From positions 1 to 64,000 of the forward strand of contig JAMDHS010000028.1 in NCBI GenBank assembly GCA_029717555.1: a stretch of 64,000 nt of DNA, read 5' to 3'. The stretch is from Peribolospora baueri. Lineage: Eukaryota. The notes under the pieces are model-generated. The model did no database searches. It was not told the DNA's origin and saw only the letters and a program-made list of their open reading frames with translations. The position numbers were made by a program, and so were the translations under genes. This document shows positions 1-37,886 of the stretch, piece after piece. Position 1 is the stretch's first letter, and each line of letters starts with the position of its first letter.

Positions 1-530
1 TCGCTACTGGTCTCGTCGGCGGCGTCACCAGCGGTGGCCTCCGTCGTCAGGCGGACTCTTCTGCCCCCGCTGGTGGCGACGGCTCCGCCGCCCCGGCCAG
101 CGGTGACAACTCCGCCGCTCCCGCCAATGCTCCTCCTTCCGGTGGCAGCCCGCTCAGCGGTCTCCTCGGTGGTCTTGGCGGTGGCCTCGCCGGCCGTCAG
201 CTTCCCAACCTCGGCGGTGTGACCGACGCTCTCCCCCTCGGCGGACGTCAGCTCGACCCGAGCGGCGTGGTTAACATCGCTACTGGTCTCGTCGGCGGCG
301 TCACCAGCGGTGGCCTCCGTCGTCAGGCGGACTCTTCTGCCCCCGCTGGTGGCGACGGCTCCGCCGCCCCGGCCAGCGGTGACAACTCCGCCGCTCCCGC
401 CAACGCTCCTCCTTCCGGTGGCAGCCCGCTCAGCGGTCTCCTCGGTGGTCTTGGCGGTGGCCTCGCCGGCCGTCAGCTTCCTAACCTCGGCGGTGTGACC
501 GACGCCCTTCCCCTCGGCGGCCGCCAGCTT
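1..530 (+). repeat. 276-bp coding tandem repeat (at least 2 copies, probably continuing upstream of the window)
   Basis: tcgctactggtctcgtcggcggcgtcacc occurs at 1 and 277. The copies are near-identical until about 253 and 529. Confidence 0.97.
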
Positions 531-1022
531 GGTGGTGGTAGCCCCTTGAGCACTGTCACTGGTCTCGTCGGCGGCGTCACTGGCGGTAGCATTGGCTCTC
601 GTCAACTCAGCGGTACTCTCGGCACTGTCAAGGGCCTTACCGACTCGGCCTCCAGGCCCCTCACCGGCGTCCTTTCCCCTCAGGCTAACAAGGGCCAGAA
701 GGTTCACCCCTACAAGCCCAACAACAGCACTGTGCCGGCCAAGCCGATCTCGTACAAGGGCCAGAATTACCAGGGCCAATGCTCTGTCGGTCCCGTCCAG
801 TGCTGCAACCATATCGTCAATGACTCTTCCACCAAGGCTTCCTTCTCCCTCGTCGGCGACATCTCCAACGCTGTCGGCTCCATCGGTCTCGAGTGTGTCC
901 CCATTGCCGCCGGTATCGCTGCCGCCATTTCTGACAACTGTAAGGAGGCTCCCGTGTGCTGCCAAGGTGTCAGCCAGAACGGCCTGATCAACGTTGGCTG
1001 CTCTTCGCTACCGCTCATCTGA
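1..1022 (+). CDS. Repeat-containing class I hydrophobin (5'-partial; Hum3/Rep1-like architecture)
   Basis: The frame is open from base 3 to TGA at 1020-1022. The C-terminal domain has the 8-Cys pattern C-X6-CC-X29-C-X14-C-X5-CC-X12-C (QCSVGPVQCC...LECVPI...NCKEAPVCC...VGCSSLPLI). It is preceded by Gly/Leu/Ser-rich 92-aa repeats punctuated by RR|Q, GR|Q and SR|Q. Confidence 0.9.
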   Translation, partial: ATGLVGGVTSGGLRRQADSSAPAGGDGSAAPASGDNSAAPANAPPSGGSPLSGLLGGLGGGLAGRQLPNLGGVTDALPLGGRQLDPSGVVNIATGLVGGVTSGGLRRQADSSAPAGGDGSAAPASGDNSAAPANAPPSGGSPLSGLLGGLGGGLAGRQLPNLGGVTDALPLGGRQLGGGSPLSTVTGLVGGVTGGSIGSRQLSGTLGTVKGLTDSASRPLTGVLSPQANKGQKVHPYKPNNSTVPAKPISYKGQNYQGQCSVGPVQCCNHIVNDSSTKASFSLVGDISNAVGSIGLECVPIAAGIAAAISDNCKEAPVCCQGVSQNGLINVGCSSLPLI

Positions 1023-1883: not shown

Positions 1884-3381
1884 ATGTCTGAACGCAAGGT
1901 CTTGAACAGTAAGCCTATTGCTGCTTCTCCTGTCATTGTCATTCAAGTCCTCGCAAGTGCTGCATAACTAAACACACAATTCATCTCATCCGTCCGTCTC
2001 CCCACCTTCCTTCCTCCCGCTTGAACAGAGTACTTCCCTCCGGACTTTGACCCAAAGCTCATCCCTAGGCGTCGACAGCCCAAGAACGCTCAGCAGGTCG
2101 TCCGCCTCATGGCACCCTTTTCGATGCGTTGTAACACCTGTGGAGAGTTTGTGTACAAGGGGAAAAAGTTTAATGCGCGAAAGGAGACTGTGGAAGGAGA
2201 GACGTACTATTGTGAGCGAGCGTTTTCGCCCGCCTTTTCTTTCTTCGCCGTGCCTCTCGTGCCTTGCTTGCCTCGATTTTCCGGCAGACAGGACTGACAC
2301 CCCGGCCGCTCGCTCTGTTTATTCGCCCTTGCCCTTGCCCGCACCCTTCCCCCCATCACAGCCATCAAGATCTTTCGATTCTACATTCGATGTCCGCAAT
2401 GCTCGGCCGAGATCACGTTCAAGACGGACCCGAAGAGTGTGTAGCCATGTCATCCCGGATTGGCGAAGCTAAGCGCTTTTGGCAGACGGACTGGCGGACT
2501 GACCCCGGCTTCGCTCCTCCTTCTTCTACCTCTCAGACACCGACTACGTGGCCGAACATGGTGCCTCGCGCAACTTTGAGCCCTGGCGAGAGGAGGAGGA
2601 GGAGGTGGAGGAGGACCGTCTGGCGCGATTGGAAGAGGAAGAGAACGATCCGATGAAGGCATTGGAAAACCGCGTGGTGGACAGCAAACGAGAGATGGAC
2701 ATCATGGACGCCCTGCAGGAGATTCGGACCCGTAACGCCCGTTTGGAGCGCGTCGGCGTTGACTCGGCCCTCGATCGCGTCCTGGACGGAAAGGGCAAGG
2801 CTGCGATGACGCCGGAGGATCTGGAGCGATTGCAAGCGGAAGAGGAGGATGAGGCCTTGATACGCCAGTACTTCCCGCGATCCGGCGGTACTGGCGGCGG
2901 GCTGCCGCCGAACTTGAATGGCGATGGCGATGCGGACGACGACGACGACGACGACGACGACGGTGCTCGAGCGACCGGCAGCGGCAGCGGCGGTGACTCC
3001 CGTTCCGGATCGGCTTCCGACTCGCTTCCCATCCTCGCAGATGCCGATGCCGCCTCTATGCCTCCGCCACCGTCGTTGCAGTCCGGCAAAGCGACATCAA
3101 CGGCGACAGCACCTTCGCCTTTGCCAACTTCTGCCTCGGAAATCCGGTCGGCAAAGAAACGACCGGCGACAGAGGTCGAGCCAGACGTGGCTAGCTTGTT
3201 GAGCGAGCGAGCAAAGAGCATGGTCGCAAGTTCGTCCAGTATGGTTGCTGCAGCCGGCATGGGCAAGGCGACGGGGACGGGAACCGGGGCGAGGGCGGGG
3301 ACGGGGGCGGGACCGGTGGCGAAGAAGAAGAAGAAGCAGGACTTTGGAGCGGCGTTGGGGATCAAGATCAAGAAGAAATGA
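1884..3381 (+). CDS. YJU2: Splicing factor YJU2/CWC16 (CCDC94), 4 exons
   Basis: The spliced translation reads MSERKVLNK|YFPPDFDP...VRLMAPFSMRCNTCGEF...IFRFYIRCPQCSAEITFKTDPK|NTDYVAEHGASRNFEPW...DPMKALENR. It has two CxxC zinc ligand pairs and GT-AG introns. Confidence 0.95.
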
Positions 3382-8123: not shown

Positions 8124-8820
8124 TCGATCGTCGCGGACCGGTTCTTGGGTCGGTACGTTTGGAGAAATGGATCGGGTGGGGACGGAATGGACAGTATGTC
8201 GGGAAACGGATAGAATGCTGCTCGAAAATAACTTGATTTCTGACTTGTTCGCCTCGCCGACAAGCGTCCGGGGTCGACACGGTAGTGTTAGGCCCTGTGT
8301 TATCAGCCGAGGAGGAAGATTTGTGCATAATGTAGAACTCTCGTGTTGGTGACTTTCGGTCCTCCTTCCGTTTTGCCGGAGGACCATGGTGGTACGAAAA
8401 CCATAACGGGCGGAGGACTGACTATCGCCCACTGGCTGGGGCGGGCGGCTCGCAGAGAGAGGGTTGAGCGAGCAGCACGGCATCGCGTTGCGTCTTATCG
8501 TTGTTGTGGATTTTTGGATTAAGCATCAAGAAAAACCCATCCTCCTTCCCCGCCATCATCCATCGCGATCTCTCCAACAGAGACGAGACGAGACAAGACG
8601 AGACCCGTTCCCACCGACGACGACGTCCCTTTCGGTCGAACGTGACAAGGACCCCGAAAGGAGAAGCAGTCAGTCGTGTCCGTATGAGGTGAATAAGGTT
8701 ATAGGAAGACGAAAGGACACGACGGAGGGGCCGGCACAAAAGTCGAAAGAACAAAGAAAGAGAGAGAAAGACGGGTTCCCAGGAGGCCAATTCTCCTCGG
8801 CACCCGGGGTCGTATGGCCC

Positions 8821-11388
8821 TCATGCCAGCAAGCCGGCGATGGCGGCAGTCTGGCACGTGGTGATGAAGCCGATGACGAGGGCAGACGGGGCGAGTCGAG
8901 CGATGACGCCGGAGCGAGAAGGAGCGAGTCCGGAGAGGACACCGATGTTGATGCCAAGGGAGCCAATGTTGGCGAAACCGCAGAGACAGTAAGAGACAAT
9001 GATGAAATTGCGCCCGACGATGGGGTCGGCCGAGGCCTGGATGGCGTGCAAGTTGGTGTAAGCGACAAACTCGTTGGCGATGGCTTTTGTGGCGAGGAGC
9101 TTGGAGATGCGAAGGATGTCGTGGCTGCCTTCGACGCCGAGGAGCCAGACGAAAGGGTAGAAGACGTAGCCGAGGACGAGCTCGATGGTGAGTTCGTGGA
9201 TGCCCCAGAACTGGCCGATCCTGTTGAACGGAGAGCAGAGAGGCCAAGAGGAAACCGGGGGTTAATCCGAGAGATCCACGACGGGTGAGTCGGGAGAGAA
9301 GGGAGAGTAGCACACCAGGTGAGAAGACCATCAACGGCGGCGAGGAGAGAAAGGATGACGAGCACGTTGGCGAGGATGGTGCCGGCGACGCGGAGACCGA
9401 ACCAAGCGCCGTTGGAGAAGGCATGAAGGAAATTGACCTCGTCGCTGGTCTTCTCGCCACGGTCGACCGTGACCTTGCCGAGGGTGAGCGGGACCTCCGT
9501 CTCGGGGTAGCGTAGCTTTGAACTACCGATAGACGCTGGAATGGACATGACAGAAGCGGTGACGATGTAGACGGCGGGAACGCCAAGGTTGATGTAGGCG
9601 AGCATGACTGCGCCGGAGATGGTGGCGAAGCCAGAGGTGAGTACCTGGTGAATCTCGGAAGGCGTCCTTCACGGCGGCGTAAAATAGTGTTGCGATAGGA
9701 AAGAAAGAGAGAGGGAAAAAAAAAAAAAAGAAAAAGAAAAAGAGAAAGGGGGAGTTCAGCCTGATGAGGCGGCTGGACCCAGCGCTGACCAAGACGTCAG
9801 ACCGATGATTCGAGTAAAAAAAGCAAGATGGCAACCGACATGTAATCGACAAAAGGCTTGACCATGCACGCGTTCTCGCCTTGACCGATGAAAGGGGAGG
9901 CGGAGGCGACGACGGCCTCGGCACCAGAGATGCCCATCGTCTTGCTGCAGGTGTAGGGGTGGGGGAACTATGTAAGCGACGGGTTTGCGCTCCGTACAGC
10001 GCGAACGACCATGCCCGTGAGACGAGAGGTAGGTCGGCGTTGGGGCGGGAGAACGGCAACGGGACTCACAAGAAGAACCAGGCGAACTTGGAGATGATCC
10101 ACTGCATGACGCCCAGGTAATAGCACATCTGAACAAAGGCGATGAAGAAGATGATAGCGGGCAGAGTCGTGAGGAAGAAGAAAGGTTGGGAGACAAAGGC
10201 CTCGGAGAAGAAGAAGGCAGCGCCGGCCTTGGAGGACTCTAGAAAGTCGGAAGCTAGAATGGCGATCCAGTCAAAGAAGGCGAACCCGGCGCTGGTCTTA
10301 AAGACGAGCAGGGCCAAGATCATCTGCATGCCCAGACCGACGATGACTTGGCGTGGTTGGACGGCCTTGTGGTTGTTCGAGGAGAGGTAGAAGCAGCACT
10401 GGAAGACGAAGATGCCGAAGAGCGAGATGGTGCGCTCTGAGAAGGGGGCCGTTTCGTTCGCAGGCGGCGGAAGAGATATCTTTCATTGGTACGCCCTTGG
10501 GAAAGAACTCGTCTCGAGGCTCAGAAGGGCAACTCACGCTTGTAGCTGCTCCCATTGAGGGGATTGCCGTACGCGGAGCCGAAGAAGAGAGCGAGCAGGG
10601 CGATCCAACCAATGGCGAGTTTGCCATAATGGGGGATCATGCTCCACGGCCTGCCCAGGACGGTGTTCCAGACAGTCGTGATGACGCGTACGAAGGGCCT
10701 TTGCGAGACATAATTGTTGTGGAAGAGGATGAAGAGCTGCGAAGGGGGGCCGCCCGCAAACAGGGACAAGAGGGGATTCGGCGTCACCTCTCATTGACGG
10801 GGAGAAGGAAGGCACTAGACGTTTGCGAAGACCGCTCCGACGGACGTCTCGCTCACGATGAAGAACCAGGTCCAAATGGTCGTCACGACCCACTTGTTGT
10901 GCGGCTGTCGTCTGATGATCAATCCGGGAATCCTTCGCGACGGGAAAACGGGAGGCGGAAAAGCGAGGATGAGCGTCCGAGTTTGGAAGGGACGGCATGC
11001 GCGAAAGCCGGCGGTCTGGGAGAAGTTTTCGAGAGACTCACCACCAGCCGAGAAGAAGGGCGATGAGGCCGAAGTGAATGAACCTCTTCCTCCAGCGGCT
11101 CTGCCAGAGCCTGCCGGCCCACTCGCTGGTCTGGTCGTTGGGCGCATCGTCTGTGCCGAGGAGTTCGTTGACCGGCTGCGCGCCAACGACCGCCTCGACG
11201 TCGCGGTCGTTGACTGCGATCTCCTTCCCCTTCTCCACCGAGGACAGCACATCAGGAGTGGACAGGGCGACGGCGGCGGCGACGGCGGCGACGTGCTTCT
11301 CGTCCGTGGTCGAGTGGGACGAGGCGGAGGGCGCCACGGGCTCCTCTGCTGGCTTGGGCTCGGGCTGGACGGGGTGGGGGTTGGACAT
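8821..11388 (-). CDS. Concentrative nucleoside transporter (CNT/SLC28/NupC family), multi-exon
   Basis: Motifs [84 protein letters not shown] and [18 protein letters not shown]. Confidence 0.93.
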
Positions 11389-16922: not shown

Positions 16923-19900
16923 TCAAAAGTCCAGGCCAAAGGGGTTTTTGGAGAACCGGGGTAGGAAAGCGGCAAAATCATCGAGGGAGAGCACGGAAGA
17001 GGAGAAGGTTAGAACGGAGAGGGCGATGACGAGCATCGGGATCCTATTTCGAACAGGGTGGGACGGAAGCAAGAAAGATGGTCAGTGAGGTCGTCGTCAT
17101 ATGGATCCCTTTGCAATGAATCAGCTCAGGAAGCGCCAAACTAAACCCACCAGAAGAAGCACAGCATGCGATCGTTCTGCATCCTCCTCGCCCTGTCTTG
17201 ATGCACGGGATGGTACGCGCAGTTCACCATCGCCTCGTCCAACTGCCCCGGGGACGGCTCGTAGCCGAGCCGTCGCGCCAGCTTTGCCCGCACGACAGCC
17301 CTGCTCGGCATCTGACTCGGGTGGGAAAGCTGTGTGGAGGGACCGGCGGCGGACGAGCCGGACAAAGAAGAGCCCTCATATACAGAACCCGTCCGCTCTC
17401 CGTCCGTTTCATCCTCGTCGAAGGAGAACATGGGCACGCTCTGCCTCTCACCCTGCCTGTCTCTCTCCGAGCTCTCTTCCGGTTCCTCTTCTTCCTTCGC
17501 CTTCTGCTTCGCTGCCGCCCGCTCCGATTTGCGTGCCATCGGGCTCCACCAGCCACCGGTAGTGGCGCCGGAGTACAAGTTCATCCAAGCAGCCAACTTG
17601 CTCCACTCGCCGTCGGACCAGCCTGACTCTTCTTCTGCTTTGACGTCGGCCGGAGCTTTCTTTCGCTTTTTCGCGTCGCCCGGCGCTTGAGGACCGAATG
17701 GTCCACGAGGCATAAAGAAGCTGGGCGTCCCGACCTGGAAGACGACGGGAAGGTCTGCGAGTGCGGGCATGGTGGGGCGAGGGAAATTGATGCTCGTCTG
17801 TCGGACCTTGTCCCAGCTGAGGGCCCCAATGCCGGACATCTTCTCGTAGGGGAAGCCAACGCCGCTCGACATTGATTTAAGATCTCTGGCCTTGGCGCTC
17901 ATCCTTGGCGAGCCGATAGACGAGAGCGTCTTGGACACCCAGGACATATGCGCAGGAGGCTCCTCGACCACGGCCAGACCGTCCGCAGAGTCGTCTGTCA
18001 CCGCCACAGCATCCAAAACCGTCTCGTCGTCGCTTCGCACGCCACTGGAAGGCTCGGCGTCGACCTCTTCCACCGAGTCGGAGAACACCTCTCCGGCTTC
18101 CTCCTCTTCACTCTCGTCCGCTCCCATCTCTCCGGCCACTGCTTCGACCTCTTCCTCCTTCTCGTCAGACGACGAGAAGGCGACGCTAGCGCCCTCGCTC
18201 TCCTCGGAGCTCGGATTCTCGCCATCGATGCCGTCGTCGAGATCACCGCTCTCCTCGCTGGACAGACTGAGGCCACTGATCCCGGAGTCAGCCTGTATGC
18301 CCGCCCGCACCGTCGCCCTGCCGAAGGGAGTATTGGCCAGCAACATGGCCACGTCCACCTGATCCCTTGCCCTTGCGATCTCCAGTGGCGTCGCACCAGC
18401 CGTAGTGCGGGCGGCGTCGTTCGCACCCACTTGAAGGAGCAGGCGGGTGATGGTGACGCGGCCGAGGAGGGCGGCAAAGTGGAGAGCGGTGAAACCGGAT
18501 CGGTCGCGCACGTCGGGAGACGCGCCGCGGGCGAGCAAAGAGGCGACAAGGAGGTGGAAGCCGAGCATGGTAGCGAGGTGAAGGAGCGTATGGCCCTGCT
18601 TGTTGGTCAGACGAAGAATGTCGCGCTGGCTGGGCCTTGAACGACCAACGGCAGAAGGCAGGTCGACGTCCAGGAGCGAGAGGAAACGGATGACGATGGT
18701 CTGGAAGCTGGACGTGCTGCCAGACCCGAGTCCGGCAGCGAGCAAGCCCGCGACAGAGTCTCTCGCTCCAGAAGCCGACGACGACGCGGCCTCGTCAGAA
18801 CCGTCAGCGCGCCGCTGACTTCCAGCAACGGATGCGCCAAACGTGGCCCCTCCTCCTCCTTCTCCTCCACCGCCGGCATTGCTACCGCTGCCAGCCCTAT
18901 CGCTCCCGACGATGCGCATCGCGACGTTTTTCGCGTCTTGAATACGTCCGGTCATCTGCATGCCGACCACCTGCAGCGCGAGCTCCATGAGCGCGCGATC
19001 GGCGTTGTCGAGGTACGTGAACAGCTGCACCGTGCTACCGTCCCTGCGAGTATTGGGCGCGGCGTTGGCGGCGTCAACAGCGGTACCTCGGAGGCTAACG
19101 ACGACGGGACCGGGACTCGGGCTGGGCGGCAAGACGCAGACGAGGGTGTTGGAACCCCAAAGCTGCGTCGGCACAGCAAGCGCATCGCCGAAGACGACGG
19201 TGAGGCCATCGACGAAATGCTCGCCTAGCACGGTCACCTCGATACCTCCGCCCGTGGGGCCTTCGCCAGGGATAAGCCTGTTGATCTTGGGCATCGGAGG
19301 TATCTCGGACGCACCGGCGCCGGTGGACGTGGAAGCGGACATCATAGAGTCAGCAGACGATGGAGGCGGGACAATCTCGAGATTCGAAGCGTCGCCCGCG
19401 CCCATCAGCGAAGACCAATCGAAGCCTCCGAATGCGCTGGGGGTGGTGGAATCGGCAGTGGCTGATCCGAAAGCGTGTGTCGGAGGAGGCAGGCCGACAG
19501 ACGGAGGGGGAGAGACGCCACGGAGGAAATTGGCCAACGCGTCCGCGTCTGCCGAGCCGAAGGAGAGCGGAGCCTGCGTGAGCCGACCGGGGCTGACGGA
19601 GGTGGTGGACGAGACAGGGGGAAGTATTGATGGCGAAGACATGGAGCCAGGCGGAGCGAGTCCGCCCATGTCAACGTCATCCATTGACGGAATGAAGAGG
19701 GCGGATGGCGAATCGGCAGCGGAAGAGACAGAGGCGCCTCCGATGCCAAGCATCTGACCCAGTCCAGAGACGGATAAGAAGCCCAGGCTGGGCGCGGGAC
19801 CGCCCCTACTGACGGGGACACCCAGAGCGGAGGTCGGAGCAGACGCCGAGGAGGAGGACGTATTGACGGTGGACGAAGACGGCGAGCTCTGAGCCTGTGA

Positions 19901-22588
19901 GGAAGGCTGGGTTTGAAAGGGGGTCATGAGGAGAAGTCCGGAAGACCCCTTCTTCTTCTTATACTCCCTGTCCGCCGCCGAATAAGGCTTGCCCCGCTCT
20001 TTCTTCCATCCTGTGCCCGGCGCAGACGAACCCATCGTGGCGGTCTTCGCCTGCTCCTCCCCCGAGACGGCCCTGTCGATGGACGTGCTCCGCGACCGTC
20101 TGCCATCCACCCGTCGAACGGAATGACTCTGCGCAACAGGGGACTTGGCCGTCGAGGAGCCACCCGATTGAGCAGCAGCCGCAGCAGCAGCGACGGAGGC
20201 CTGGGTGGACTTGTGGTCGTCCGTTATCATGATAGGCGGAGTCGAGCCAGTGGCGACCAGTTGGCCTTGCCAGTCTCGCATAGTGAAGATGATGCTGCGG
20301 AGGGAGTGCCAAGACGGGGAAATGGAGATAATGCGGAATCGCACGTTGCACACGTTCATGCGCGGATGTCAGTTATCGTCAAAAGACCCAGCAGAAAGAA
20401 CCAGTCTTTTCACATGATTCTGCCGATCCGATCGATCACACTCCCTTCCACGCGCTACAAGCACGCGCATCCTCACTAGCCGGATCCTCGGGGTCCCGGA
20501 CTAACCGTTGGACTGGTCGGCCACTCTGGGTCTACCCCGTCCTTCCCATCGCACCGAAAAAGACAGGGAAAGAAAAGACATCAAAGCTCACCAAAAGCCC
20601 AACTTCTCCTTATGGTGCCGACAATAGCAAGTGATCCTAGTGGGCAATATGGCCTCTCCCTGATCGAAATCGACATAGTCGCCGCAGTTGAAGAGAACGA
20701 TGCGGTTGCGCTCGGCGTCCTCGATGGCCTCTTCCGTCGCTCCTTCAAGTCCCAGCCCGAAAAGCTCATTGCCGGTTGAGGCCGCTCCATGTCCCTCCTC
20801 GGACTTGGTCGGTCGGGCGCGAACGTCCTTCTTCCGCTGAGCACGCTTACGCTCGCGCTGTCGACAACCCGCGCAGGTGAAGACACGCGAGTGAGGCTCG
20901 GTGGCACAGACCACCGTCGCGTCCACGTAGAGCGTCTTTTCGGGCGGGACGTCTGTGAGTCATAGAGATGTCGATCGGAGGGAAGGGTGAGAATGGAGGT
21001 GACGACGTTGTCAGAAACTCGAGAACAAAGGGAGCCTCCCGACACGTCACCGAAGAGCGGCGGGCGGGAAGGGTGATAAACTGATAAGACGATGGCCCAA
21101 AGACTCACCGGTGCGAATATACTTCTTACTCTTCCTCTTCGTAGCCGTCATAGGCGGCAGCTTGAGGTGTGTCCAGCTGCCAATCCGTTCCCACAGCACT
21201 GCGGACGCGGCCTCGCTCTGATTCTGCTTCTGCTGCGCGGCGCCGAACCCATTCGCGCCGTGTCCACCTCTGCTCCCCCAAATCCGCCCGTTACCCAGGC
21301 CGCTCCCTTCTCCATCGCTCCCACTCTCGCTCTGTTTGATCCTAACTCCGTCCTCGAACATCGCAGAGTCACCATCGACAGCGGCGGAGGTCGTAGCGCC
21401 GTCATTCCTCCAACCACCTGTCGCTGAGCCCGCAGCGTCATTCGCAGTCGGTGCCGCCCCTGGAGAGGCGAAAGGCCTGACGAGTTCGATGCGCATCTTG
21501 ATCTGCGTCTCCACTCTGCTCTTTGCGCCGGTGACAGGCACGCCATGCACATGGATCTGCAGAGGCGGAACGGGAACGCCGCCATCCGGCGCGATCGTGC
21601 CTGCGACCAGCCCTGGACCTAGGCCGAGGCTTGACGGGGAGGGACGGACTATCCGGAAGGACGAGAGGCCTAATTCCGGCCCAGACGACGCCGCCGTCGC
21701 TGGTGCGGTCGCCGAGAAACCGGAAGCGTCGGAATGAACGAGCACGGAGGGGTGCCCGTTCGCCAGCTCGCCCCGCGAAACGGTGCCGCTGCCGCTGCCG
21801 CTGCCGCCACCGCCACCACCAATCTCGTGACCAGAGGCGCGTGGGCTGGACTGTAGGCTGGTATTTTCCGGCGTCATGTAAGGGCTCTTCGTGCTCGAAC
21901 GCGTGGCATCGTGCTTCATCGGCGAGGACGTGGATGAGGAGAAATTGGAGGTGTCGGGGCGCTGGTGCTGATCGTCCGGACCGGCAGAGGCGTCATCGAG
22001 AGAAGCAACGGAGATGTTGGAGAAGACTGAAGGTGGGAGGGAAGAAAGAGGCGGAGAGGTGGTGGCAGAGGGAGGACCGCAAGATCCTTCCTGTATGACG
22101 TCTTCAAAGAGCACGTCGCCGTCGATGTCTCCCCGTCGGGCGTCTCCACCTCGCAGCTTGGCCACGTCGGCCAAACCGTTTCGTTCCAATCCGCTCCAGA
22201 CGCCCTTTCCAAACCCATCACCATTCCAACCTTGGTTGGAGTCCGCAGACTGGCCTAGTCCATGTGCAGAGGCGGACAACGGATGCTCACCGCTGGCGCC
22301 GTTCATCATGTTTATGGACGAACCGAGCAAGGAGTCGCCGTCCTCGCTCGTCCTCCGCTTGATATGCACATTCGCAGTTCCCTGGGGACCTCCTCTAGCG
22401 CCGCCGCCGCCGTCGCCGCCACCACCACCGTGGAAAGAGAAGCCATCGTCGGCGAGGAGGCTGGTGGAAGGGCTCGAATGGTCGCTGCCGCTCGGACTAA
22501 GCGAAGAGTCGTCTGGTGAGCCGGCGTGAGTGGAATGGGGCAGTGGCATGGACATTGAGGGGCCGAGAGGGGAAATAGCGTCGATCAT
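16923..22588 (-). CDS. SPT23/MGA2-type membrane-tethered transcription factor (IPT/TIG domain, ankyrin repeats, C-terminal TM)
   Basis: Motifs GAKSRVETQIKM, CAGCRQRERKRAQRKK, RITCYCRHHKEKLGF, PPIMITDDHK, IPT domain (INRLIPGEGPTGGGIEVTVLG), ankyrin repeats (GHTLLHLA, GFTALHFAA) and terminal QNDRMLCFFW|IPMLVIALSVLTF. The start codon is uncertain. Confidence 0.92.
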
Positions 22589-35825: not shown

Positions 35826-37309
35826 TCAAGCGAACAAAGCCAATGCCACCTGCTCCGCCTCGGTCTGCGCCGCCTTGGTGAGGTTGCCCGACGTGACGTC
35901 CCTCTCGAACACGACCACCGACCCGCTGTCCTGGTTACCCACCGCCAGCAGGCTCGCCTGCGGATCGGTACTCAGCGAAAAGTGCCTCGGCGTGCGACCG
36001 CCGGACTTGACGAGGCCGCGCACGCTCAACGTGGCGTTCTGGCCGTCGCGGGAGAGGACGACGATGTGGTCCTCGACGGCGTCGCCGCGCAGGCCGGCGT
36101 ACACAAACTTGCCGTCCGGCGAGACGGCCACCTCGGAGCCCGTGTAGCCCGTCGTGTTGGTGCCGTCCGTGGGGAGAATGTTGAGGCTCTGCTTGCGGTC
36201 CAGGGAGCCGTCGGCGGCGTTGAAGAGGAAGGTGTCCACCGTGGTGCCCATCTCCGTCGCCACGTAGAGATACGTCGCGTCCGAAGCCCTGTCGACGTAA
36301 AACTTCCCGTGCCGGGGGCCGCTGCCAGGGGCGAAAGTGGTGTCACCGATGGCGTGCAGGGTCTCGTTGGCCGGATCGAGCTTGAAGCCGTGGAGACGGT
36401 CCGCTCCGAGCTGAGCGGAAGGGTGAAAAGGCATAGACGAGGCCAAACGTCAGTTGGACGCGGCGCTGTTCACCCGAGGAAGCGCGACGCGCCGGGCAAG
36501 AAACAAAGAAAAAAACTCACGTCAGGGACATAGACGAATTTCCCGCTAGGGTCATCGAAGATCTCGTGAGCGTAGGATTGGTTCTACGGTTTGGAAAGGT
36601 GGGGAAATGCGGTTCGACGGAAGATCTCGTGAGCCGACCATGCGTGAAAGGGGGAGGAGGGGGGGTCGATCCCAAGTCGCCCTTGTCCGGTGACCCTTTC
36701 GCTCACCTGCCTCGCCGGGTTCGGTCCGCTTCCGTGGAACTGGAACAGCTGATACGGCTCGTCCTGCTCGACGATCTTTCCCTCGTCATCGAGCTTGAGC
36801 ACGCTCGCGCTCCCAGAGTTGTAGTTGGCCGCATAGAGCAGCTTCGCACCAGGGTAGCGGCTGACGGAGCAGTGCACGGTGCCGTTCCCGCCGGAGGGGG
36901 ACCTGTTGAGTGTCTTGATCTGTCCGGAAGGAGTGAGGGAGTGGGCGTAGACGGCGCCGGGGACGGTCTCGTCCACAGAGTAGAGGCGTGTGCCGTCTTG
37001 GCTGAGGCACGCCCACGACGGCGAGGTGCCGCTGTCGGTGACGGTCGAGGCGTTGTGGAAAGCCTTGCTCGAGGGGTCGTAAAAGATGGCGGAGAGGGCG
37101 GAGGCGTAGCCGCCAATGATGAGTCGGTGCTGGTGCGTCAAAGGCGATTGCGAAGGGAACAGAGGAAAGGCATCAGCTCTGGCGGACGGAGAGAAAGGCG
37201 GGGGAGGCCGACTCACTGCCTCTCCGCTTCCTGTAGGTTGAGCCATGGCGTCACAGGCGCAAGTCAAGCCGAGGGCGGCGAGGGTAAGGAAGGATGCCAG
37301 GCGAGGCAT
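35826..37309 (-). CDS. Secreted 7-bladed beta-propeller lactonase (6-phosphogluconolactonase/cycloisomerase-2 family)
   Basis: Signal peptide MPRLASFLTLAALGLTCA, then PSW, LYSVDE, AANYNSGS, GSGPNPARQ, HEIFDDPSGKFVYVPD|LGADR, GSGPRH, VSPDGKFVYAGLRG, GGRTPRHF and VGNQDSG. Confidence 0.9.
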
Positions 37310-37886
37310 CGTCGTTGTCGAGGAAAGGGAAGGCGAAGGGGACAGGGCGGAAAAGGAGGCGTAGGCAGGGAGGGGCGCAATCGGGTAGTCACATTTATGG
37401 GCAGCGATTAGGCGCGAGGAAAGCGGAGGAAGATGGAGACACGCGCTCGTCATTGTACCGCTTCCGCTTGCCTTGCGCTCCATCAACCCGGGCGGGCCGT
37501 GGGCCGCTGGACAAATGAGAAAGCGCACCTACTACCTACCTTGAGCCATGCTGCTGATTTGAAAGCCACAGTCTTTCGAGGCGACGGTGCGTCTTGCGCG
37601 ATGGATGGAACGGCTCGACTCGCCGGCGGCTCGACGCGTCGGAGGCGCCAGCGGGGCACCGCCCGGCCCACCGGACCGACCGGCGATCATCACGCTGGCG
37701 GGCCAAGTTATCGAAGGAAGACGGCCAGGTCGAGGACGGGCACGACACAGCGGTCTTCATTTCGTCCCCTCCGAATGCTGGCCCCCAAGCGATTGCGTCG
37801 GTCCATTCGAGAGGGATCGGGCAGCCAGCGTTCGCGCCATGGGTCACCTCGTACATACTGTACATACAAGTCTGCTGTTTGGCACC

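What the first reader, a model, noticed from the sequence alone, without database searches (positions are those of the whole stretch)
1..1022. Hydrophobin polyprotein: a cassette of Gln-initiated Gly/Leu peptides delimited by R|Q sites
Seen: each 92-aa repeat divides exactly into three units that end in Arg and start with Gln. They are QADSSAP...LSGLLGGLGGGLAGR (50 aa), QLPNLGGVTDALPLGGR (17 aa) and QLDPSGVVNIATGLVGGVTSGGLRR (25 aa). A variant QLGGGSPLSTVTGLVGGVTGGSIGSR and a final QLSG... segment carrying an 8-Cys class I hydrophobin follow. Known: Ustilago Rep1 is cut by Kex2 into surface-active repellent peptides, and Hum3 fuses repeats to a hydrophobin. Inference: one precursor releases several distinct amphipathic, possibly pyroglutamate-capped peptides together with the hydrophobin, acting as a multi-component surface coating system. 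Most junctions are monobasic (GR|Q, SR|Q) rather than KR/RR, implying relaxed or different processing.
Basis: partly seen in the sequence, partly recalled or inferred. Interest (0 to 1): 0.78.

Follow-up and report, generated by a model that had tools for sequence, protein, structure and literature searches.

The report
Hum3-like repeat-hydrophobin precursor, 5'-truncated
The window starts inside a fungal gene for a secreted surface-coating protein (a hydrophobin) preceded by tandem Gly/Leu-rich peptide units that each end in Arg and start with Gln, an arrangement already known from the smut-fungus protein Hum3 but built here from unrelated repeats.

Summary
Window 3-1022 (+) is a 339-aa ORF open at its 5' end. 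It holds 1.9 copies of a 92-aa repeat that splits at R|Q into 50-, 17- and 25-aa units. A 26-aa variant unit follows, then a 139-aa tail ending in an 8-Cys class I hydrophobin (Pfam PF01185, E 5.5e-14).

In residues 1-200 every Arg sits at a junction, every Gln follows an Arg, and there is no Lys. No shuffle of 100,000 reached the observed seven RQ pairs.

The hydrophobin domain groups with Ustilaginomycotina "hydrophobin 3" (Hum3) proteins, which also carry N-terminal repeats ending in Arg. The window's repeats are not detectably related to theirs.

The five monobasic junctions all have Leu or Ile at P4, which fits the published expanded Kex2 motif LxxR. Hum3 relatives also use monobasic junctions, so no different protease is needed. 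Pyroglutamate-capped, Gln-initiated Kex2 peptides are documented in Coprinopsis.

Cleavage, secretion and expression remain untested here, because the N-terminus lies outside the window. The peptides are not amphipathic by moment analysis.

Verdict: a real feature and a new variant of a known kind. Interest is moderate.

The parts
1..529 (+). Tandem DNA repeat, period 276 nt, 1.9 copies. The array continues upstream of the window.
   Evidence: TRF. The two copies are identical at 255 of 276 positions. Short-read contigs collapse the array and show 2.2-3.6 times the depth of the unique flank.
3..47 (+). Last 15 aa of a C unit (ATGLVGGVTSGGLRR), ending in the dibasic junction RR|Q
48..197 (+). 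Unit A, copy 1 (50 aa, QADSS...GGGLAGR): acidic Ala/Pro/Ser-rich head, Gly/Leu tail, ends L-A-G-R|Q
198..248 (+). Unit B, copy 1 (17 aa, QLPNLGGVTDALPLGGR), ends L-G-G-R|Q
249..323 (+). Unit C (25 aa, QLDPSGVVNIATGLVGGVTSGGLRR), ends RR|Q
324..473 (+). Unit A, copy 2 (50 aa). Its amino-acid sequence is identical to copy 1; the DNA differs only at third codon positions.
474..524 (+). Unit B, copy 2 (17 aa), amino-acid sequence identical to copy 1
525..602 (+). Variant unit C' (26 aa, QLGGGSPLSTVTGLVGGVTGGSIGSR), ends I-G-S-R|Q
   Evidence: It shares 13 of 26 residues with unit C.
603..779 (+). Basic N-terminal extension of the hydrophobin (59 aa, QLSGTLGTVKGL...). It contains K-G-Q-K-x-x-P, which aligns with the GRGQRP / GKGxKP linker motif of relatives. 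Its only Arg is followed by Pro.
   Evidence: Alignment. Net charge is +6 for the first 58 of the 59 aa (residues 201-258).
780..1007 (+). Class I hydrophobin domain with 8 Cys
   Evidence: Pfam PF01185, E 5.5e-14. Solved hydrophobins match at E 2.1e-11 to 1.6e-5. AlphaFold2 block-mean pLDDT is 66-87 over residues 261-339.
1020..1022 (+). Stop codon TGA

Best explanation
The window begins inside the gene for a secreted pre-pro-protein of the Hum3 type (repeats fused to a class I hydrophobin). The best matches point to a fungus of the Ustilaginomycotina.

Proposed mechanism (inferred, not shown):
1. The precursor enters the secretory pathway.
2. A kexin (Kex2) cuts after Arg at RR|Q and at the [L/I]-x-x-R|Q sites.
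3. A Kex1-type carboxypeptidase trims the C-terminal Arg.
4. The new N-terminal Gln cyclises to pyroglutamate.

Each 92-aa repeat would then yield three different, mildly hydrophobic, neutral-to-acidic Gly/Leu-rich peptides: A of about 49 aa, B of about 16 aa and C of about 23 aa. The last cut, at SR|Q, would release a 139-aa hydrophobin with a basic 59-aa extension. Peptides and hydrophobin would be delivered together to the hyphal wall as surface-coat components, as proposed for Rep1 and Hum3.

Shown here: the ORF, the repeat anatomy, the junction grammar, the hydrophobin domain and its kinship with Hum3-group proteins.
Inferred: secretion, every cleavage, pyroglutamate formation and the coat function.
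For: Identity:
- Pfam Hydrophobin, E 5.5e-14.
- An exhaustive HMMER search found 178 proteins at E <= 1e-3. All 10 of the 15 best that carry a source name come from Ustilaginomycotina or Wallemia. They include 'putative hydrophobin 3' of Ustilago hordei (P0014). The best-15 row P0006 is itself unnamed, but its cluster holds P0155, 'hydrophobin 3' of Moesziomyces aphidis.
- In a maximum-likelihood tree of 35 hydrophobin domains, the window sits in a 15-row clade (support 81/71) with every protein named hydrophobin 3. The short second hydrophobins of Acaromyces and Pseudozyma fall outside it.

Shared architecture:
- Relatives P0008, P0009, P0014 and P0155 have a hydrophobic N-terminus that looks like a signal peptide (judged by eye), then repeats ending in Arg, then a GRGQRPRPR linker, then the hydrophobin.

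Junction grammar:
- Basic residues in the repeat region occur only at unit ends, and no shuffle of 100,000 reached the observed RQ count.
- The modules have diverged (8-13 identities over 25-27 aa), yet each keeps the QL start and the Arg end.
- All 5 monobasic sites have L or I at P4, matching the expanded Kex2 motif LxxR and the stated aliphatic P4 preference (PMC8528282, passages read).
- The one Arg not followed by Gln (SASR|P) has Ser at P4.
- P0008 has 5 of 5 repeat ends of the form I-[AS]-A-R, which are monobasic with Ile at P4.
- Cleavage after single Arg residues and pyro-Gln peptides were detected by peptidomics for C. cinerea Kex2-processed repeat proteins (PMC9769878, passages read).

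Selection:
- The 7 nucleotide differences between the two copies of units A and B are all at third codon positions, and the peptides are identical.
- In a related organism (runs X3 and X4), the 4 listed differences in residues 201-339 are all synonymous. None of the 18 listed differences touches an R or Q junction codon. A shorter repeat form there keeps ...GGLRR|Q....
- The nearest relative of the repeat region, P0003, has two 21-aa units that start with QL after HR and KK and end in KK and RR. One shares the motif LGGVTD.

Structure:
- AlphaFold2 gives no secondary structure across the repeats, with block-mean pLDDT of 43-55 over residues 1-200. This is as expected for a disordered pro-region.
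Against: - The N-terminus is outside the window, so no signal peptide has been seen.
- No protein, peptide or cleavage data exist for this gene.
- Kex2 prefers Lys or Arg at P2; the monobasic sites have Gly or Ser there.
- Junction conservation in the related organism is weak evidence. With 13 changed codons among 135, missing all 11 junction codons is expected by chance with p = 0.31. In addition, 12 differences were not listed by the tool.
- In the single-module relative P0007, MAFFT places D|QL opposite the window's R|QL. P0012 has no equivalent junction.
- The BLASTP alignment to the Calocera repeat protein P0035 does not put cleavage sites opposite each other.
- Hydrophobic moments of the units are not above those of shuffles (p >= 0.19).
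- Processing of Hum3 itself is described only as 'putative' in the review table read (PMC4617103).
Confidence: 0.55

Rival explanations
1. Only the dibasic RR|Q sites are cut. The precursor then releases whole 92-aa units, and the last unit stays attached to the hydrophobin. The GR|Q and SR|Q motifs are uncut relics of module duplication.
For: KR and RR are the canonical Kex2 sites (PMC8528282, passages read). The catalogue pipeline for Kex2-processed repeat proteins cuts in silico only at KR, RR or KK (PMC6339444, section 24 read). The related organism keeps RR|Q in a repeat form that lacks unit C and its GR|Q junction.
Against: All five monobasic sites carry L or I at P4, and Arg occurs nowhere else in 200 aa. 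The QL start and Arg end survive in modules that share only 8-13 of 25-27 residues. Cleavage after single Arg was observed for basidiomycete Kex2-processed repeat proteins (PMC9769878). P0008 repeats end only in monobasic IAAR or ISAR.
Confidence: 0.2
2. There is no internal processing. The Gly-rich repeats form a disordered spacer or wall-embedded N-terminal extension that holds the hydrophobin domain away from the wall. Long low-complexity N-terminal extensions occur in other hydrophobins.
For: The repeats are predicted to be disordered. Other hits carry long Pro/Thr/Ser- or Gly-rich N-terminal regions without regular basic sites (P0064, P0065, P0067). The peptides are not amphipathic.
Against: A spacer would not need Arg restricted to regular R|Q boundaries (no shuffle of 100,000 reached the observed count). 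It would also not need strictly synonymous differences between repeat copies. The hydrophobin lineage is the one fused to repeats that end in Arg, at sites described as putative Kex2 motifs (PMC4617103).
Confidence: 0.15
3. The monobasic sites are cut by a different enzyme from Kex2, for example a yapsin-type aspartic protease specific for monobasic sites. Kex2 would handle only RR|Q. The yapsin specificity is recalled from general knowledge and comes from no call.
For: Gly or Ser at P2 is poor for Kex2. The invariant Gln at P1' (7 of 7 junctions) could reflect the preference of another enzyme.
Against: The [L/I]xxR pattern fits the published Kex2 extension (PMC8528282). No data point to another enzyme, and no genome is held in which to look for candidates.
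Confidence: 0.08
4. The ORF is a pseudogene, an assembly artefact or a chance ORF in GC-rich repeat DNA.
For: A 321-aa ORF also runs on the opposite strand. The repeat array collapses in short-read contigs.
Against: The + frame ends in a complete Pfam hydrophobin domain. A related organism keeps the frame, with an in-frame 6-nt deletion and only synonymous listed changes in the hydrophobin part.
Confidence: 0.02

Closest known systems
Ustilago maydis Hum3 (hydrophobin 3) and its orthologues, e.g. U. hordei CCF51025.1 'putative hydrophobin 3' (P0014) and Moesziomyces aphidis ETS62364.1 'hydrophobin 3' (P0155)
   Same: A C-terminal class I hydrophobin preceded by tandem repeats whose units end in Arg. 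The hydrophobin domains are 42-47% identical to the window's and share a clade. A basic G-x-G-Q-[KR]-x-P-like linker lies before the first Cys. Monobasic repeat ends also occur in the family.
   Different: - The repeats are not detectably homologous. BLASTP of the part before the hydrophobin against P0014 finds nothing in its repeats, and Pfam finds nothing.
- The unit is a 92-aa composite of three different peptides, not a single repeat of 31-36 aa.
- P1' is always Gln.
- The linker has Lys where relatives have Arg (GRGQRPRPR), so no Arg site lies next to the domain.
Ustilago maydis Rep1 repellent precursor
   Same: A secreted repeat precursor cut at Kex2 sites into wall-bound surface-active peptides of 34-53 aa (PMC3133707 and PMC4617103, passages read). 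Unit A has a similar length.
   Different: Rep1 has no hydrophobin domain. No Rep1-like protein was recognised among the 150 rows listed, of which only 20 were looked up by name. Amphipathicity of the window's units is not supported.
Kex2-processed repeat proteins (KEPs) of Agaricomycetes, e.g. Coprinopsis cinerea KEP 497993
   Same: Repeated core peptides that begin with Gln directly after the Kex2 site and are found pyroglutamated. Some products arise from cleavage after a single Arg (PMC9769878, passages read).
   Different: Those precursors are short, their sites are dibasic, and they carry no hydrophobin. Only 2 of 1193 catalogued KEPs hold three motif types (PMC6339444, section 24).
Calocera viscosa hypothetical protein KZO98319.1 (P0035)
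   Same: A Gly/Leu/Asp/Thr-rich repeat of about 52 aa bounded by RR or KR, sharing motifs such as VTDALP and LGTV.G..DSA. BLASTP E 5e-6, 30% identity over 174 aa; HMMER E 1.9e-7.
   Different: It has no hydrophobin domain. The junctions do not align, and the similarity may come from composition.
Solved basidiomycete class I hydrophobins (PDB 6e9m, 7s7s, 2nbh, 5w0y, 6e98)
   Same: The same domain by sequence, E 2.1e-11 to 1.6e-5.
   Different: The solved chains are 84-107 aa. None has a repeat pro-region.

Membership tests
Class I hydrophobin (Pfam PF01185) | Match to the family profile above the curated cut-off | tested here: met
   53 bits against a cut-off of 23, E 5.5e-14, profile positions 1-78 of 79
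Class I hydrophobin (Pfam PF01185) | Eight Cys in the pattern C-CC-C-C-CC-C with class I spacing (the class I spacing ranges are recalled from general knowledge) | tested here: met
   Spacing 6-0-29-14-5-0-12. All 8 Cys columns are invariant or at least 90% conserved in the 35-sequence alignment.
Class I hydrophobin (Pfam PF01185) | Secreted through an N-terminal signal peptide | not testable with these tools
   The N-terminus lies upstream of the window, no genome is held, and no contig with the start could be read.
Hum3-type repeat-hydrophobin | Tandem repeats directly N-terminal to one hydrophobin domain in a single ORF | tested here: met
Hum3-type repeat-hydrophobin | Hydrophobin domain groups with named hydrophobin 3 proteins rather than with other hydrophobins | tested here: met
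   15-row clade with support 81/71, which is modest. The window's branch is long, at 0.91.
Hum3-type repeat-hydrophobin | Repeats separated by Kex2 motifs | tested here: inconclusive
   2 of 7 junctions in the window are canonical RR. The other 5 of 7 fit only the expanded LxxR motif (PMC8528282). No cleavage was tested.
Hum3-type repeat-hydrophobin | Repeat sequence homologous to the Hum3 repeats | tested here: not met
   BLASTP against P0014 finds no significant match in its repeat region. The HMMER hits to Hum3-group proteins cover only residues from about 246 to 338.
Kex2-processed repeat protein (KEP) as defined in PMC6339444 | Signal peptide; at least four fragments after in-silico cuts at KR/RR (or KK); at least three similar fragments; repeats covering at least 15% of the length | tested here: inconclusive
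   The window has only 2 RR sites. Contig depth suggests 3-4 repeat copies in total, which makes the fragment count borderline. The signal peptide is unseen. Repeat coverage is well above 15%.

The most novel reading that the evidence does not exclude
A hydrophobin of the Hum3 lineage has acquired, independently of the Ustilago Hum3 repeats, a composite cassette. Cleavage at [L/I]xxR|Q and RR|Q would release three different pyroglutamate-capped Gly/Leu peptides in fixed 1:1:1 proportion, together with one hydrophobin. Catalogue pipelines that cut only at KR, RR or KK cannot see this monobasic, three-peptide form. The peptides would co-assemble with the hydrophobin into a mixed surface layer. 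This would show that the fusion of repeat peptides to a hydrophobin is a recurrent, modular design rather than a single ancestral event.
Probability: 0.3. Interest if true: 0.6.

Novelty: new variant of a known kind. Interest (0 to 1): 0.38.

Why it matters
If the junctions are cut, four things follow.

- The repellent-plus-hydrophobin precursor design would extend from Ustilago Hum3 to another Ustilaginomycotina lineage that uses unrelated peptides.
- The gene would be a natural substrate series for testing monobasic LxxR cleavage by fungal kexins.
- It would show a blind spot of catalogue pipelines that cut only at KR, RR or KK (PMC6339444, section 24).
- It would offer new short Gly/Leu peptides to test for surface activity.

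It does not open a long-standing question. Hum3 and Rep1 biology is already described, and Hum3 alone is reported as dispensable for virulence (PMC4617103).

Tried and rejected
Recovering the 5' end of the gene:
- No whole genome is held for this window.
- A metagenome scan matched 248 pattern stretches, and none encodes a relative.
- The laid contigs do not reach the start of the gene.

Word-index protein searches:
- P0001 searched at near and longer lengths gave no hit, probably because low-complexity words swamped the candidates.
- P0003 as query gave 4 proteins, none adding repeat-region relatives.

Other searches with nothing to show:
- ESM Atlas: no usable hit.
- Earlier findings of this scan: nothing by place, sequence or words.
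- No RNA holder was listed among the 4 runs found, so expression could not be examined.
- tblastn of P0001, P0035 and P0014 against the window found no second hydrophobin or repeat gene in the 64 kb.

Tests that gave no support:
- BLASTP of the part before the hydrophobin against P0003 was not significant (E 0.07).
- Amphipathicity by helical (100 degrees) and beta (170 degrees) moments was not above shuffles for any released unit.

Ideas considered and dropped (recalled reasoning, no test):
- C-terminal amidation of the Gly-Arg ends, as in animal neuropeptides. Gly makes up 27% of the region, and I know of no fungal amidating enzyme.
- Ste13 trimming. Only unit A starts with an X-Ala dipeptide (QA).

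Literature:
- Papers not held: PMC452153 (Rep1, 1996) and PMC2757621 (Hum3/Rsp1, 2008). Details of Rep1 and Hum3 therefore rest on later papers.
- A search for hydrophobin + Kex2 + polyprotein found 2 unrelated papers. A search for hydrophobin + Kex2 + Ustilaginomycotina + repeats found 0.
Full report
**1. What is in the sequence**

Window 3..1022 on the + strand is a 339-aa reading frame. It is open at the window's 5' edge and ends at TGA 1020-1022. Tandem Repeats Finder reports a 276-nt period, 1.9 copies and 97% matches over 1-529.

- a truncated 15-aa piece;
- unit A (50 aa), unit B (17 aa) and unit C (25 aa);
- A and B again;
- a variant unit C' (26 aa);
- a 139-aa tail.

Pfam finds nothing in residues 1-200. 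It finds a complete Hydrophobin domain (PF01185, E 5.5e-14, 53 bits against a cut-off of 23) at residues 260-335. The eight Cys have spacing 6-0-29-14-5-0-12. Five solved hydrophobins match at E 2.1e-11 to 1.6e-5. An AlphaFold2 model built on a 35-sequence alignment has block-mean pLDDT of 66-87 over residues 261-339. Across the repeats it shows no secondary structure, with block-mean pLDDT of 43-55 over residues 1-200.

A 321-aa ORF on the opposite strand is best read as a shadow of the GC-rich repeat. The ORF is 67% G+C and the window 60%.

**2. Is the R|Q pattern more than chance?**

In residues 1-200 there are 9 Arg, 7 Gln and no Lys. Every Arg sits in a GR|Q, SR|Q or RR|Q junction, and every Gln follows an Arg.

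- Seven RQ dipeptides were reached by 0 of 100,000 shuffles of residues 1-201.
- In a non-redundant 119-aa set, four RQ were reached by 1 of 100,000 shuffles.
- The junctions use different codons (CGT-CAG, CGC-CAG, CGT-CAA).
- The modules B, C, C', the start of the tail and the end of A share only 7-13 identities in pairwise alignments. Even so, B, C, C' and the tail all start with QL, and A, B, C and C' all end in Arg.
- The two copies of A and B differ at 7 nucleotides. All 7 are at third codon positions, and the peptides are identical. This argues for selection on the peptide sequence itself.

The only Arg not followed by Gln is in the tail (SASR|P).

**3. What it is related to**

Word-index searches found nothing. 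An exhaustive HMMER search of 1.84 billion representatives found 178 proteins at E <= 1e-3, 14 at E <= 1e-10 and none at E <= 1e-30. Almost all hits come through the hydrophobin domain, and the best scores 75.5 bits.

All 10 of the 15 best that carry a source name come from Ustilaginomycotina or Wallemia. The genera are Tilletiopsis, Acaromyces, Violaceomyces, Parajaminaea, Thecaphora, Ceraceosorus, Wallemia and Ustilago (three entries, including the U. hordei 'putative hydrophobin 3'). The unnamed best-15 row P0006 shares its cluster with P0155, 'hydrophobin 3' of Moesziomyces aphidis.

P0008, P0009, P0014 and P0155 show the Hum3 layout: a hydrophobic N-terminus that looks like a signal peptide (judged by eye), repeats of roughly 30-36 aa ending in Arg, a GRGQRPRPR linker, then the hydrophobin.

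In a maximum-likelihood tree of the 35 domains of alignment A1 (no rows dropped), the window falls in a 15-row clade with support 81/71. That clade contains every protein named hydrophobin 3. It excludes the short second hydrophobins of Acaromyces and Pseudozyma flocculosa, Wallemia and the Agaricomycetes. The window's branch is long, at 0.91.

A review table lists Hum3 as 828 aa with 17 repeats of 31-36 aa, 14 of them separated by putative Kex2 motifs, followed by a hydrophobin domain. The same table gives Rep1 as cut by Kex2 into wall peptides (PMC4617103, passages read; PMC3133707, passage read). A 2026 review calls Hum3 a 'chimeric hydrophobin-Rep1 fusion' (PMC13514795, passages read).

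**4. Where it differs**

- The window's repeats are not detectably homologous to Hum3 repeats. BLASTP of residues 1-259 against P0014 gives no significant match in its repeat region.
- The closest repeat-region relatives are weak.
  - P0003 is an unnamed 205-aa fragment. It has two 21-aa units that start with QL after HR and KK and end in KK and RR, and one shares LGGVTD. BLASTP restricted to the part before the hydrophobin is not significant (E 0.07).
  - A Calocera viscosa repeat protein bounded by RR or KR matches at BLASTP E 5e-6 with 30% identity over 174 aa, but its junctions do not align with the window's.
  - P0007 and P0012 carry a single Gly/Leu module. MAFFT places D|QL of P0007 opposite the window's SR|QL.
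- The linker before the domain aligns with GRGQRP or GKGxKP of relatives but is Lys-based. The last Arg site before the domain that fits the junction motif is therefore SR|Q at residues 200/201.

**5. The monobasic junctions**

All five monobasic junctions have an aliphatic P4: L-A-G-R twice, L-G-G-R twice and I-G-S-R once.

[quoted passage not shown] Peptidomics of Coprinopsis cinerea Kex2-processed repeat proteins reported products from cleavage after single Arg residues. It also reported many peptides that begin with pyroglutamate formed from Gln directly after the Kex2 site (PMC9769878, passages read).

Within the Hum3 group, P0008 has 5 of 5 repeat ends as IAAR or ISAR. P0009 has IETR and VETR beside KR sites. 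P0014 and P0155 mix KR and RR with ER, AR and SR.

So the monobasic grammar is neither unprecedented nor evidence for a different protease.

The published catalogue pipeline for these precursors cuts only at KR, RR or KK, and found three motif types in only 2 of 1193 proteins (PMC6339444, section 24 read). A composite monobasic cassette like this one would be missed or misdescribed by it.

**6. Evidence from sequencing runs**

Four DNA runs of one study hold the stretch. Two belong to organism A (share of sampled words 0.93) and two to organism B (0.30-0.31). These may include the source of the window, so they are not independent support for the sequence.

Their short-read contigs collapse the array. 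Repeat records have 2.2-2.5 times (279-nt record) and 3.5-3.6 times (57-nt record) the depth of the unique flank. I infer about 3-4 repeat copies in the genome, hence at least one more upstream of the window.

In organism B, of the listed differences:
- the 4 in residues 201-339 are all synonymous;
- in the repeats, 8 codons change the residue and 5 are synonymous;
- none touches a junction codon.

Missing all 11 junction codons is expected by chance with p = 0.31, and 12 further differences were not listed. A 6-nt in-frame deletion lies in unit C'.

One record from organism B joins unit B to ...PGGLRR|QEDSS..., a repeat without unit C that keeps RR|Q. A 7.7-kb record ends at the array with upstream letters that read in frame as ...GQALDLVTST before VGGVTSGGLRR|Q. 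This is probably the 5' edge of the array in that organism (the translation is my own reading).

**7. Mechanism and rivals**

The best reading is given under Best explanation, with confidence 0.55: a Hum3-type precursor cut by kexin at RR|Q and [L/I]xxR|Q, then Arg trimming and Gln cyclisation, releasing three peptide species per repeat plus a 139-aa hydrophobin.

The rivals are:
- cleavage only at RR|Q (0.2);
- no cleavage, with the repeats acting as a disordered spacer (0.15);
- a different monobasic protease (0.08);
- an artefact or pseudogene (0.02).

Unit A instead has a polar, acidic head and a Gly/Leu tail. After Arg trimming the units are neutral to acidic, and the first 58 residues of the hydrophobin's extension carry net +6.

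**8. Verdict**

This is a new variant of a known kind, the repeat-plus-hydrophobin precursor of the Hum3 type. It has unrelated composite repeats and a uniform [L/I]xxR|Q / RR|Q grammar.

Literature searches for the same arrangement found nothing beyond Hum3. These searches cover only the held open-access library. Two key primary papers were not held.

Noticed in passing
window 779-945 (matched by records from another contig): Contigs of about 10.5 kb in all four runs match only 779-818 and 883-945, with 7-9 mismatches and 166 letters between the two pieces instead of 64. This is probably a second, paralogous class I hydrophobin gene elsewhere in the genome, with a longer loop or an intron.
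   Followed up: no
window 2109-3381 (+): Two ORF pieces match Pfam Saf4/Yju2 at profile positions 28-66 and 92-271. This looks like a splicing-factor gene split by at least one intron, just downstream of the hydrophobin gene.
   Followed up: partly
window 17141-22588 (-): ORFs of 1072 aa and 513 aa carry IPT/TIG and ankyrin repeats plus fragments of the SPT23/MGA2 DNA-binding domain. They are likely one SPT23/MGA2-type membrane-tethered transcription factor gene with an intron.
   Followed up: no
window 8670-9605 (-) and 36584-37483 (-): ORFs matching the C-terminus of a Na+-dependent nucleoside transporter and a 7-bladed lactonase. Both are ordinary neighbours with no evident link to the hydrophobin.
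   Followed up: no
window 3-965 (-): A 321-aa ORF runs antisense to the repeat and hydrophobin gene. It was not scanned against any family library, and it is typical of shadow ORFs in GC-rich repeats.
   Followed up: partly
window 1-529: The 276-nt array is collapsed in short-read contigs (records of 279 and 57 nt at 2.2-3.6 times the flank depth). The window edge falls inside it. Repeat number in any short-read assembly of this gene should not be trusted.
   Followed up: partly
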